Origin: Escherichia coli
GTDB lineage: Bacteria; Pseudomonadota; Gammaproteobacteria; Enterobacterales; Enterobacteriaceae
DNA length: 64,000 nucleotides
Direction: 5' to 3' (one strand)
NCBI RefSeq assembly: GCF_030013595.1
Contig: NZ_CP122768.1
Position numbers: made by a program. Positions 56,001 to 59,000 of this stretch are shown here, in pieces. Numbering within the stretch: position 1 is the first letter of the stretch; each line of letters begins with the position of its first letter.

Positions 56001-59000
56001 CGCGTGGCTATCTCGATCAGGCCAAATCGCGCCCTAACCTGACCATTCGTACTCACGCCATGACCGATCACATCATTTTTGACGGCAAACGCGCGGTGGG
56101 CGTCGAGTGGCTGGAAGGCGACAGCACCATTCCGACCCGCGCGGCGGCGAATAAAGAAGTGCTGTTATGTGCAGGCGCGATTGCTTCACCGCAGATCCTG
56201 CAACGCTCCGGCGTCGGCAACGCTGAACTGCTGGCGGAGTTTGATATTCCGCTGGTGCATGAATTACCCGGCGTCGGCGAAAATCTTCAGGATCACCTGG
56301 AGATGTATCTGCAATATGAATGCAAAGAACCGGTTTCCCTCTACCCTGCCCTGCAGTGGTGGAATCAGCCGAAAATCGGTGCGGAGTGGCTGTTTGGCGG
56401 CACCGGCGTTGGTGCCAGCAACCACTTTGAAGCAGGCGGATTTATTCGCAGCCGTGAGGAATTTGCGTGGCCGAATATTCAGTACCATTTCCTGCCAGTG
56501 GCGATTAACTATAACGGCTCGAACGCAGTGAAAGAGCACGGCTTCCAGTGCCACGTCGGATCGATGCGCTCGCCAAGCCGTGGGCATGTGCGGATTAAAT
56601 CCCGCGACCCGCACCAGCATCCAGCGATTCTGTTTAACTACATGTCGCACGAGCAGGACTGGCAGGAGTTCCGCGACGCAATTCGCATCACCCGGGAGAT
56701 CATGCATCAACCCGCGCTGGATCAATACCGTGGCCGCGAAATCAGCCCCGGTGTCGAATGCCAGACGGATGAGCAGCTCGATGAGTTCGTGCGTAACCAC
56801 GCCGAAACCGCCTTCCACCCGTGCGGTACCTGCAAAATGGGTTATGACGAGATGGCAGTGGTTGACGCCGAAGGCCGCGTACACGGGCTGGAAGGCCTGC
56901 GCGTGGTGGATGCGTCAATTATGCCGCAGATTATCACCGGCAATTTGAACGCCACGACGATTATGATTGGCGAGAAAATGGCGGATATGATTCGCGGGAA
57001 GGATGCGTTGCCGAGGAGCACGGCGGGATATTATGTGGCAAATGGGATGCCGGTGAGAGCGAAAAAAATGAGTCGTGATGTGAACTGACTCAGGAACCTA
57101 TCAGATTGAGAGTTACCGTTCTACTATGAGGACCGAATCCTTATATAAAACACTGAGGTAACTCTCATGCTTCATCGTGACAATCTCGCCAGCAAATTCT
57201 AAGCTGACTTGCTCAATCTGGCTGATGAAGGTGCTATGCATACACAGATAAACTACAGATGAAATACCACTCAGCTTAAGAATTACGCCGCTAATGTTCC
57301 TGGCTATGGTTACCTGTTCATTCCCGCTCACGGTTAGCATGTACGAAAAGGGTTCTTGTAACGAGTACAAAAATAAGTCAGACCAAAACCACATGGAGCT
57401 TTAAACACAGCTCGTATAATTTATTAGCAGCGATTTATTTTTACGCTTCTTTAATTAATCATCATGCTTAAATATTTTTTAGCACACGATTATCGCTTCG
57501 CTAACATTTTATTTTACATTCATCATCAATTGATAATAAAAAATTGTTAATAATTTTTTGCAAAAAACAAAAAGTGTTGGAATACTCTCCATCAAATGAA
57601 TGCAAAATAAACAAATTGAGATATACAAAAAGTAAAAACCATTTAAATGAATATTTTTAATTTATGAGCAGAACCCATTAACAATGATTTACTCACGACC
57701 AGAAAAGTAAATAACACCTTGCAATAATATGTATTTATAAATTTATATCATTGATATTAAGCTAATCTTACTTTCTACCCTCCAAATTTATGCAGCAAAA
57801 AAAATAAAAGCAAAATCAATTGGATACACAACAAAGCAATCTCACAGGAAATGATGTTAAATATCTCAAAACTAATAAAAATTACTAAAAAATTAGACGT
57901 AACACACATCCCACACGCCCTGTAGCTCATAGCTTTTATATTTATTTTCTCACATCACTGTAGATAAAAACACGCATTAAAAATGACTTGTAGAAAAGCT
58001 GCACAATAAATAGTTCATATTTAGTCTGTTGCGTAGAACTACTATTCAAAAAATCTTATTAATGAGATAATGAGATTACATCGATAACGTTCTGATGGCA
58101 GGCATACTTATCTGGGTGTGCCTCTTTTTTTTACAACTGTACACGGTGGCGTATGACGAGAAAATATCTCACACAGGATGAAGTCTACAGGCTGATGGAT
58201 GCAGCCCAGAGCATGTCCTTTCCTGAAAGAAATCGCTGTCTAATTATGATGGCTTTCATTCACGGTTTTAGGGCCAGTGAACTTCTTGATTTACGTTTAT
58301 CCGATATTGATGCATCTGGAAAACAACTTAATATTCGGCGTATTAAAAATGGTTTCTCGACAACACATCCTCTTCTTCCTGATGAATATAATTTGATCAA
58401 GTTGTGGCTTAAGCAGAGGAAGTTAATTGAAAACGGAGTTGAAGGAGACTGGCTTTTTCTCTCCCGGAAACGCCGCCCTATCAGCAGACAACATTTTTTT
58501 TCTATCATTCGTGAGGCTGGAAAACGTGCAGGATTAGCTGTAAAAGCACATCCTCATATGTTACGTCATGCCTGTGGTTTTGCTCTGGCTGACAATGGTG
58601 TCGATACCCGACTACTTCAGGATTATCTGGGTCATCGAAATATTCAGCATACTGTCAGATACACAGCCAGTAATGCTGCTCGTTTTAAAGGGGTGTGGAA
58701 AAAAAAGCCTCGTTAAAACAGTACCTTCTGATTCAAAATGTCAGATTCCTACGTTTTCCTCAATTCTTCCATAAAAAAACAGCCCATTCAATTAAATAAA
58801 ACACATAACATGTTGATATTTCTAGCTAAAGTAAAATAATCCCATGATTTGAAATGATTAATCAAAAAGGTCATACCAGTGATTAACTTTCGCTCATATT
58901 GTTAAATAACACAAAATTAAAAACAATAAAAATCAAACAAATTAGATTTATATTCCAAGAAAATTAAATATTCAGGCTATTAAACCAAACCTGACATTTT

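What the first reader, a model, noticed from the sequence alone, without database searches (positions are those of the whole stretch)
57089..58152. About 1 kb of very AT-rich non-coding DNA upstream of the recombinase gene
Seen: no convincing ORF; long A/T runs; a 10-bp inverted repeat GAGAGTTACC/GGTAACTCTC (57108-57117 and 57157-57166) just after the betA stop. Established: the nanC-fimB region upstream of fimB is likewise about 1.4 kb, AT-rich and densely regulated. Inference: a large regulatory input region for the recombinase, possibly H-NS bound or encoding a small RNA.
Basis: partly seen in the sequence, partly recalled or inferred. Interest (0 to 1): 0.4.

Follow-up and report, generated by a model that had tools for sequence, protein, structure and literature searches.

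The report
AT-rich left arm of PAI-X
The 1 kb AT-rich gap is real, but it is the non-coding left arm of the known E. coli island PAI-X, lying upstream of the fimX/ipbA recombinase gene and most likely serving as an H-NS-silenced promoter region, so it is ordinary rather than new.

Summary
Window 57089-58152 is 1064 bp with no credible ORF and 32% GC (24.6% in its core), the most AT-rich stretch of the 64 kb window. It has more A/T runs than its composition predicts.

The setting is known. The window is E. coli, and the gap lies between betA and ipbA (also called fimX or hbiF). It is the left end of pathogenicity island PAI-X (fimX-hyxS-hyxRAB), inserted between betA and ykgH.

However, it sits in core DNA that K-12, which lacks the island, also carries. 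It therefore belongs to the betA 3' end, not to the recombinase.

The island part (57176-58152) has no homology to the nanC-fimB region and no NanR, IHF, CRP or Lrp consensus. It has no hyxS-type recombination site and no Rfam match. Its distal ~800 bp is hypervariable among E. coli alleles (pi up to 0.25), yet length and AT content are kept.

Only the last ~100-200 bp is conserved. That part carries a terminator-like hairpin plus T8 ending 20 nt before the fimX ATG.

Published CFT073 ChIP-seq scores ipbA as bound by H-NS and StpA.

Verdict: an H-NS-silenced 5' region of a known gene. An sRNA or attenuator remains possible but untested.

The parts
55400..57088 (+). betA (choline dehydrogenase), the last gene of betIBA and a core gene
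   Evidence: Annotated in a 99.9% identical genome, where L001 5312-7000 equals window 55400-57088. The stop TGA is at 57086-57088.
57089..57175 (+). Core DNA downstream of betA, shared with the island-free K-12
   Evidence: K-12 genomes match only query positions 3-87. Alignment shows the homology ending at ...CATGCTTCAT (57175).
57107..57167 (+).
   Evidence: Searches give the coordinates. Energy is -26.2 kcal/mol with z = -4.2. The outer stem is invariant in the window, K-12, O157:H7 and Rb-50.
57176..63169 (+). PAI-X island (about 5994 bp): non-coding left arm, fimX, hyxS, hyxR, hyxA, hyxB
   Evidence: The left and right junctions against K-12 share only the dinucleotide AT. Gene content comes from RefSeq annotation of near-identical genomes.
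57176..57400 (.). Distal segment of the arm, about 42% GC and non-coding; Rb-50 has a 96-bp insertion after 57337
   Evidence: Composition. No coding signature. Divergence is 9% against O157 and 19% against Rb-50. The insertion is seen.
57400..57950 (.). Extreme AT-rich core (24.6% GC) with a hypervariable peak at 57700-57850
   Evidence: pi reaches 0.20-0.25 across 9 alleles. GC stays at 22-25% and total length at 967-1075 bp in every allele.
57951..58152 (+). Conserved proximal block, presumed to hold the fimX promoter and 5' leader; 58050-58152 is almost invariant
   Evidence: Identity is 93.6-99.5% in all alleles and pi is about 0.01 from 58050 onward. No strong sigma-70 consensus was found on the + strand.
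58052..58077 (+). Predicted hairpin 1 (AATCTTATTA / TAATGAGATT)
   Evidence: Found in the fold of 58030-58140: -26.9 kcal/mol, z = -3.7, 1 of 200 shuffles as stable. Rb-50 carries one disrupting change, G58074A.
58100..58132 (+). Intrinsic-terminator-like hairpin (10-bp stem, 4-nt loop, 58100-58123) followed by T8 (58125-58132), ending 20 nt before the fimX ATG
   Evidence: (-13.5 kcal/mol, z = -2.4). It is present in every allele seen at this site: the aligned window, B2 M1/5, O157:H16, O157:H7, Rb-50 and Escherichia sp. L007, plus CFT073. Rb-50 and L007 carry a one-sided U.G to C-G change. A hairpin of different sequence plus a T-run sits at the same place before an 81%-identical recombinase (L010 4940-4966).
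58145..58149 (+). Shine-Dalgarno-like GGTGG for fimX
   Evidence: Read directly from the sequence.
58153..58716 (+). ipbA / fimX / hbiF, a tyrosine-type DNA invertase of 187 aa
   Evidence: Pfam PF00589, E = 3.7e-50. RefSeq annotation.
58730..59015 (.). hyxS invertible switch downstream of fimX. The 15-bp inverted repeat GATTCAAAATGTCAG occurs at 58730-58744 (+) and 58991-59005 (-), with an extra copy at 59001-59015 (+)
   Evidence: Its role as the FimX-inverted hyxR promoter is stated in PMC6458436 and PMC3789825.
59046..63094 (+). hyxR (59046-59840), hyxA (59994-60755) and hyxB/upaB (60797-63094)
   Evidence: RefSeq annotation transferred from L001.
63278..63946 (+). ykgH, the core gene to the right of the island

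Best explanation
The interval has two parts. The first 87 bp (57089-57175) is core E. coli DNA. The remaining 977 bp (57176-58152) is the non-coding left arm of the horizontally acquired island PAI-X.

The most likely function of the arm is as the 5' control region of fimX/ipbA. Its extreme AT content and A-tracts would recruit H-NS/StpA filaments that keep the recombinase gene weakly transcribed. The actual promoter and leader would lie in the conserved last ~100-200 bp. There, a terminator-like hairpin plus T8 ends 20 nt before the ATG. That hairpin either insulates fimX from transcription coming from betA and the AT-rich tract, or attenuates fimX's own leader.

The distal ~800 bp would act through composition and length, not through specific operator sequences.

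Shown: the island context, the junctions, the absence of genes, the composition, the divergence pattern, the presence of the hairpin, and H-NS/StpA occupancy of ipbA in CFT073 (published, at per-gene resolution).

Inferred: that H-NS nucleates on the intergenic DNA itself, where the promoter lies, and what the hairpin does.
For: Context: 4901 of 5426 complete E. coli genomes match the first 87 bp, while only 1879 carry at least 80% of the region. RefSeq annotation places it between betA and ipbA-hyxR-hyxA-hyxB-ykgH. The literature describes PAI-X / the UpaB cluster as inserted between betA and ykgH (PMC3789825; PMC4844996).

Composition: this is the lowest GC in the window, with excess A/T runs.

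H-NS: in CFT073, ipbA has H-NS IP/input 15.88 and is called 'H-NS bound', class III (RNAP weak). Its occupancy is 0.187, against 0.208 for fimE and 0.452 for fimB, and StpA is also bound. The neighbouring betA scores 0.97 and hyxR 3.26. The CFT073 region is 95.6% identical to the window and has the same hairpin.

Retention: all 9 alleles keep 967-1075 bp and 22-25% GC in the core despite up to 35% local divergence. This is unexpected for useless DNA in a genome with a bias towards deletion.

Proximal block: it is conserved, and the terminator-like hairpin is present in every allele where that site was examined. An analogous hairpin sits before the recombinase of a second hyx-like module.

Consistent biology, from my own recall of the abstract of Hannan et al. 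2008, which I could not retrieve here: FimX-mediated switching is slow in vitro but fast in vivo.
Against: The ChIP dataset is per gene, so H-NS occupancy of the intergenic DNA itself was not seen. The signal on ipbA could come partly from the AT-rich hyxS on its other side.

No sigma-70-like promoter reached the scan threshold on the + strand upstream of fimX.

The H-NS high-affinity 10-mer is not enriched: 3 matches with up to 2 mismatches, against 2.5 expected. There is no A-tract phasing either; 71 of 200 shuffles do as well.

Conservation of the proximal block (2-6% divergence) is no greater than at fimX third codon positions (1-3%). It may reflect recent spread of the fimX-hyx segment rather than constraint.

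The distal part evolves at or above the neutral rate, which is also what functionless DNA would do.
Confidence: 0.6

Rival explanations
1. The proximal conserved element (about 58030-58135) is a functional RNA. It would be either a small RNA ending at the 58100-58132 terminator, or a premature-termination attenuator in the fimX leader that sets how much recombinase is made.
For: The 58030-58140 + strand folds into two hairpins at -26.9 kcal/mol, z = -3.7, with 1 of 200 shuffles as stable. The second is a canonical stem plus U8. Only 20 nt separate the U-tract from the ATG, so any fimX transcript must either read through the hairpin or start within those 20 nt. The hairpin is present in every allele seen at this site, with a U.G to C-G change in two of them. 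A hairpin of unrelated sequence plus a T-run lies 34 nt before the 81%-identical recombinase in L010.
Against: There is no Rfam match. No promoter was predicted upstream of it. There are no compensatory changes, because variation is too low. Hairpin 1 is disrupted by G58074A in Rb-50. The Salmonella orthologue STM0716 has no such hairpin. Only 3 of 11 fim-family recombinase genes sampled have a terminator-like site within 200 nt upstream. No expression data were found.
Confidence: 0.17
2. Apart from a short proximal promoter, the arm is functionless spacer or decayed DNA. It would be AT-rich through mutation bias and carried along with the island.
For: Divergence is neutral or faster, with indels, in 57176-57950. 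There are no conserved motifs and no conserved structure. The equivalent upstream gaps are much shorter in the related modules: 277 bp in L010 and 514 bp in Salmonella.
Against: Length (967-1075 bp) and extreme AT content are kept in all nine alleles across deep divergence. Even O157:H7, where ipbA, hyxR and hyxB are pseudogenes, keeps it. No trace of a former gene was found. The locus is H-NS/StpA bound.
Confidence: 0.17
3. The region is a fimB-type signal-integration region, homologous or analogous to nanC-fimB, with distant operator sites for specific regulators such as NanR, NagC and IHF.
For: It has similar size and AT-richness, and sits upstream of a FimB paralogue.
Against: No colinear similarity to the nanC-fimB or fimB-fimE gaps was found; the only matches are scattered AT-rich ones on both strands. 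There are no GGTATA (NanR) or IHF consensus matches. The upstream gene is co-oriented betA, not a divergently transcribed regulated gene. The distal DNA is hypervariable.
Confidence: 0.04
4. The region is a second invertible or recombination target for FimX, or the remnant of a second recombinase gene, as in the fimB-fimE and ipuA-ipuB pairs.
For: Several weak inverted repeats lie in the AT-rich DNA. Many fim-type loci carry two tandem recombinase genes.
Against: The 15-bp hyxS repeat has no copy with up to 3 mismatches in 57089-58152. Genome-wide inversion mapping under FimX overexpression found only fimS and hyxS (plus ipuS in CFT073) (PMC6458436). tblastn with FimX, FimB, FimE and their homologues against four alleles scores no better than shuffles (6 of 60 as good).
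Confidence: 0.02

Closest known systems
PAI-X (fimX/ipbA/hbiF-hyxS-hyxRAB; 'UpaB cluster', GI-4 of APEC O1) of E. coli
   Same: This is that locus. It has the same insertion site between betA and ykgH, the same genes, and the hyxS inverted repeats downstream of fimX.
   Different: The papers I could read describe the island as four genes plus the switch. None of them analyses the ~1 kb non-coding left arm, its junction, its hypervariability or the hairpin before fimX. The primary papers (Bateman & Seed 2012; Bateman 2013; Hannan 2008; Bryan 2006) were not available in the library.
nanC-fimB intergenic region of E. coli K-12 (the regulatory region of fimB)
   Same: It is a long (1455 bp), AT-rich (36% GC) non-coding region upstream of a FimB-family recombinase gene. 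Both fimB and nanC are H-NS/StpA bound in CFT073.
   Different: There is no sequence homology and no NanR or IHF consensus. The neighbour is co-oriented rather than divergent. The region here is much more AT-rich (24.6% in its core) and hypervariable between strains.
H-NS/StpA xenogeneic silencing of AT-rich horizontally acquired DNA (as mapped in CFT073 by Hustmyer et al. 2022, PMC9765446)
   Same: It is a lineage-specific island with AT-rich DNA. The adjacent gene ipbA is scored H-NS and StpA bound with weak RNAP.
   Different: Occupancy of the intergenic DNA itself, nucleation sites and any counter-silencer are unknown.
Recombinase-switch module of the Salmonella T1-antigen locus (STM0716)
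   Same: The recombinase is an orthologue at 72% identity. Per PMC11294581 the switch repeats are identical. It also has an AT-rich upstream gap.
   Different: Its upstream gap is only 514 bp. There is no detectable DNA homology upstream of the start codon and no terminator-like hairpin.

Membership tests
PAI-X left arm (5' flank of fimX/ipbA) | Located between betA and ykgH, immediately upstream of ipbA, which is followed by hyxS and hyxRAB | tested here: met
PAI-X left arm (5' flank of fimX/ipbA) | Absent from island-free E. coli such as K-12 | tested here: met
   K-12 matches only the first 87 bp.
nanC-fimB-type regulatory region | Sequence homology to the nanC-fimB (or fimB-fimE) intergenic DNA | tested here: not met
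   blastn with word size 7 gives only scattered AT-rich matches on both strands, best E = 0.001 over 94 nt at 65% identity.
nanC-fimB-type regulatory region | Operator motifs for NanR (GGTATA repeats) and IHF (WATCAANNNNTTR) | tested here: not met
   Zero matches for each. NagC was not scanned.
nanC-fimB-type regulatory region | Long AT-rich non-coding DNA 5' of a FimB-family recombinase gene | tested here: met
   1064 bp at 32% GC, against 1455 bp at 36% GC.
H-NS-silenced xenogeneic DNA | AT content far above the genome average, with A-tracts | tested here: met
H-NS-silenced xenogeneic DNA | H-NS occupancy in vivo | tested here: inconclusive
   The published per-gene ChIP-seq scores ipbA as H-NS and StpA bound in CFT073. 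The intergenic DNA itself is not tabulated.
H-NS-silenced xenogeneic DNA | High-affinity nucleation motif (TCGATAAATT) or phased curvature | tested here: not met
   3 matches with up to 2 mismatches against 2.5 expected; the 10.6-bp periodicity is no better than shuffles.
Small RNA gene | Match to a described RNA family | tested here: not met
   Rfam 15 at E <= 1 over 56500-59500 gives no match.
Small RNA gene | Own promoter plus intrinsic terminator, with conserved structure | tested here: inconclusive
   A terminator-like site is present. No promoter reaches threshold. There is too little variation for covariation analysis.
Small RNA gene | A detectable transcript | not testable with these tools
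   No TSS or sRNA dataset covering this locus was found.
Fim-type invertible switch | Flanking inverted repeats recognised by the linked recombinase | tested here: not met
   No copy of the hyxS repeat lies in the region. No inversion was reported there (PMC6458436).
Rho-independent terminator (58100-58132) | G+C-containing stem-loop directly followed by a U-tract on the transcribed strand | tested here: met
   10-bp stem with 4 G-C pairs, 4-nt loop and T8. Termination activity was not tested.

The most novel reading that the evidence does not exclude
The nearly invariant 58030-58135 element, made of two hairpins of which the second is an intrinsic terminator ending 20 nt before the fimX ATG, would be a regulated attenuator or leader-derived small RNA that gates FimX synthesis. 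In that case switching at fimS and hyxS would be controlled at the level of transcription read-through. The hypervariable AT-rich DNA just upstream would supply lineage-specific promoter or silencing strength. This would explain why FimX acts slowly in vitro and fast in vivo.
Probability: 0.15. Interest if true: 0.55.

Novelty: new member of a known kind. Interest (0 to 1): 0.22.

Why it matters
FimX is enriched in uropathogenic E. coli. It flips both the type 1 pilus switch and the hyxR switch, so how its own level is set matters for understanding phase variation during infection.

This analysis places the region in its known context and removes the inverted repeat from the story. It shows that the distal DNA is kept for composition and length rather than sequence. 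It also narrows where to look for control: the last ~200 bp and a terminator-like hairpin next to the start codon. None of this overturns current understanding. It is a typical H-NS-bound island arm.

Tried and rejected
1. My first guess was a fimbrial chaperone-usher operon downstream. This was wrong: the annotation shows hyxR, hyxA and hyxB.

2. Hidden genes were rejected. The ORF93 and ORF51 alleles are broken and show no codon-position bias. Pfam gives only E = 0.098.

3. A decayed second recombinase gene was rejected: tblastn scores are within the shuffle range (6 of 60).

4. Homology to the upstream regions of fimB or fimE, of Salmonella STM0716 or of the L010 module was not found.

5. 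Copies on plasmids or phages were not found. The only hits are E. coli chromosomes filed as plasmids.

6. An extra FimX target site was not found.

7. A structured RNA at 57510-57609 (z about -4 on both strands) was rejected. It is not conserved, the consensus energy is -7.7 kcal/mol, and there is no covariation.

8. The hairpin before the start codon is not a general trait of fim-family recombinase genes: only 3 of 11 have one.

9. The scan of genome contigs for relatives returned a single short Escherichia contig.

10. The primary PAI-X papers and any TSS map for UPEC could not be retrieved.
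Full report
**Observation.** Window 57089-58152 lies between a stop codon at 57086-57088 and an ATG at 58153. It is 1064 bp at 32.4% GC, against 51.2% for the window, and only 0.5% of equally long windows are lower. The 500 bp starting at 57396 has 24.6% GC, the minimum of the whole 64 kb. Runs of five or more A or T number 17, against 9.1 +/- 2.4 in dinucleotide shuffles.

**No genes.** The longest ORFs are 93 aa (57113-57394, minus strand) and 51 aa (57775-57930, minus strand). In other E. coli alleles they lose the start codon or acquire frameshifts and stops. Substitutions are spread evenly over the three codon positions, whereas betA and fimX show the expected third-position excess. 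Pfam gives nothing above noise. A search with all six-frame segments of 25 aa or more found no relative (with the caveat of the candidate cap). The 44-aa 'hypothetical protein' annotated in O157 strains falls within the equivalent of the 51-aa ORF. It is not preserved in the B2, Rb-50 or pig-strain alleles.

**Context.** The window is E. coli. The first 87 bp of the region match 4901 of 5426 complete genomes, while only 1879 carry at least 80% of it. In near-identical genomes the flanking genes are betA on the left and ipbA on the right. RefSeq notes ipbA as 'also known as HbiF and FimX'. It is followed by hyxR, hyxA, hyxB and then ykgH.
- This is pathogenicity island PAI-X, also called the UpaB cluster, described as inserted between betA and ykgH (PMC3789825; PMC4844996).
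- FimX inverts fimS and the hyxS promoter element that lies downstream of fimX (PMC6458436; PMC8777976).
- I located hyxS at 58730-59015. Its 15-bp repeat GATTCAAAATGTCAG occurs on opposite strands.

**Junctions.** Alignment with K-12 places the left junction after ...CATGCTTCAT (57175) and the right junction at 63168-63170. The island is thus 57176-63169, about 5994 bp, and only the dinucleotide AT is shared by the two ends.
- The inverted repeat lies entirely in core DNA that K-12 also has.
- It forms the outer stem of an extended hairpin: -26.2 kcal/mol, z = -4.2, with 0 of 200 shuffles as stable.
- Both arms are invariant in four lineages, although the 87 bp differ by about 10% overall. 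No U-tract follows.
- It is therefore a feature of the betA 3' end next to the insertion point, not part of a recombinase control region.

**What the island arm is not.**
- It has no colinear similarity to the K-12 nanC-fimB gap (1455 bp, 36% GC), the fimB-fimE gap, the Salmonella STM0716 upstream gap or the upstream gap of a second hyx-like module.
- It has no copy on plasmids or phages and no Rfam match at E <= 1.
- It holds no third copy of the hyxS repeat. This agrees with genome-wide inversion mapping that found only fimS, hyxS and ipuS under FimX overexpression.
- It shows no remnant of a recombinase gene.
- Consensus scans for IHF, NanR, CRP, Lrp and OxyR gave zero hits. The H-NS 10-mer is at chance level, A-tract phasing is at chance level, and there is no GATC (4.0 +/- 2.6 expected).

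**Evolutionary pattern.** I aligned nine alleles: the window, three B2-type strains, AF39, 64A:C, O157:H16, O157:H7 and Rb-50.
- Diversity is about 0.03-0.05 in betA. It rises through the arm to 0.20-0.25 at 57700-57850, then drops to about 0.01 from 58050 through the whole of fimX.
- The table gives the divergence figures for O157 and Rb-50.

| Region | O157 | Rb-50 |
|---|---|---|
| Arm, 57176-57700 (divergence) | 9-11% | about 18% |
| Arm, 57701-57950 (divergence) | 22-24% | about 33% |
| betA, third codon position (divergence) | 14% | 7.8% |
| fimX, third codon position (divergence) | about 2% | about 3% |

- The distal arm therefore evolves at or above the neutral rate and has its own history. 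Mosaics exist: AF39 has a window-type arm with the fimX allele shared by O157:H16 and Rb-50.
- Two consequences follow. First, there is no sign of conserved specific operator sites in the distal ~800 bp. Second, conservation of the proximal block is no stronger than at fimX synonymous sites, so on its own it does not prove constraint.
- Every allele nevertheless keeps 967-1075 bp and 22-25% GC in the core. This includes O157:H7, where ipbA, hyxR and hyxB are pseudogenes. That points to retention of length and composition.

**H-NS.** The CFT073 copy of the region is 95.6% identical to the window. In the published CFT073 ChIP-seq (PMC9765446, Data set S1):
- ipbA (c0430) has an H-NS IP/input of 15.88 and is called 'H-NS bound', class III (RNAP weak). 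StpA is also bound.
- Its occupancy is 0.187, against 0.208 for fimE, 0.452 for fimB and 0.290 for nanC.
- The neighbours betA (0.97) and hyxR (3.26) are not bound.
- The table is per gene, so the intergenic DNA is not reported, and hyxS on the other side of ipbA is also AT-rich.
- Together with the composition, this makes H-NS/StpA coating of the arm the best-supported function.

**Proximal element.** A terminator-like site stands out on the + strand. It has a 10-bp stem (58100-58123, four G-C pairs, 4-nt loop) followed by T8 (58125-58132), at -13.5 kcal/mol and z = -2.4.
- It ends 20 nt before the ATG, and GGTGG at 58145-58149 is the likely ribosome-binding site.
- A fimX transcript must therefore read through the hairpin or start in those 20 nt.
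- With the preceding hairpin (58052-58077), the stretch 58030-58140 folds at -26.9 kcal/mol, z = -3.7.
- The hairpin is present in every allele seen at this site: the five aligned, Escherichia sp. L007 and CFT073. Rb-50 and L007 carry a U.G to C-G change that strengthens it.
- A second hyx-like module has an 81%-identical recombinase, two small genes and an autotransporter, and sits next to acetolactate decarboxylase and synthase genes. It has a stronger hairpin of unrelated sequence plus a T-run 34 nt before its start codon.
- The Salmonella orthologue has none. Among 11 fim-family recombinase genes sampled, only these two and fimE (85 nt upstream) have one.
- The element could be an insulator against read-through from betA and from spurious starts in AT-rich DNA. 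It could also be a leader attenuator, or the 3' end of a small RNA. No promoter passed the scan threshold, and I found no expression data.

**Verdict.** The region is the AT-rich, H-NS-associated 5' arm of a known island gene, not a homologue of the fimB control region, and the inverted repeat belongs to core DNA. The best explanation is silencing by composition plus a proximal promoter or leader carrying a terminator-like hairpin (confidence 0.6). The rivals are an attenuator or sRNA (0.17), functionless spacer (0.17), a fimB-type operator array (0.04) and a second switch or decayed recombinase gene (0.02). Overall interest is low (0.22). The hairpin and the hypervariable segment are modest leads that can be tested.

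Noticed in passing
window 57062-57068 (A-run near the betA 3' end): The window has A7 where K-12 has A6. With A6, betA stops 18 nt earlier (556 aa, 1671 nt, as in K-12, MEW and CFT073). With A7 it runs to 562 aa (1689 nt). This is a homopolymer length polymorphism that changes the BetA C-terminus.
   Followed up: partly
window 58984-59022: The right boundary of hyxS is a 19-nt near-perfect palindrome that holds two overlapping copies of the 15-bp repeat (58991-59005 on the minus strand, 59001-59015 on the plus strand with 1 mismatch). The switch therefore has three repeat copies, which could allow alternative recombination end points.
   Followed up: partly
window 50512-51179: This is the only other stretch of the window below 33% GC in 500-bp windows. 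By transfer from L001 it is the gap between the start of ehaA (an autotransporter adhesin gene absent from K-12) and the 3' end of betT. It is probably another AT-rich island promoter region.
   Followed up: no
L010 4724-10276 (also L011, L012): A second hyx-like module is present in assemblies that the source labels E. coli. It has an 81%-identical recombinase, a 242-aa and a 248-aa protein and a 900-aa autotransporter, and sits next to acetolactate decarboxylase and synthase genes with only 277 bp upstream. One paper states that PAI-X is exclusive to E. coli and found at one site; this looks like a paralogous island elsewhere.
   Followed up: partly
L002 (O157:H7 FRIK2533) 6001-11812: In this O157:H7 strain ipbA, hyxR, hyxB and ykgH are all annotated as pseudogenes, yet the AT-rich arm is retained at full length (1058 bp).
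   Followed up: no
L004 (Rb-50), insertion after the position equivalent to window 57337: The Rb-50 allele carries an extra 96 bp of higher GC and is the most divergent arm (65-82% identity), while its fimX is 98.6% identical. AF39 has a window-type arm but the Rb-50/O157:H16 FimX protein allele. Both point to recombination break points between about 57950 and 58152.
   Followed up: partly
window 63133-63161: A perfect 29-nt palindrome, CCTGCAGGCAGCATACTGCTGCCTGCAGG, lies just inside the right end of the island after hyxB. It is likely the hyxB terminator and sits 7 bp from the junction with core DNA.
   Followed up: no
ykgH, window 63278-63946 (c0425 in CFT073): In the CFT073 ChIP-seq table the core gene ykgH, just right of the island, has the strongest H-NS signal of the neighbourhood (IP/input 48.9). 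That is higher than any PAI-X gene.
   Followed up: no
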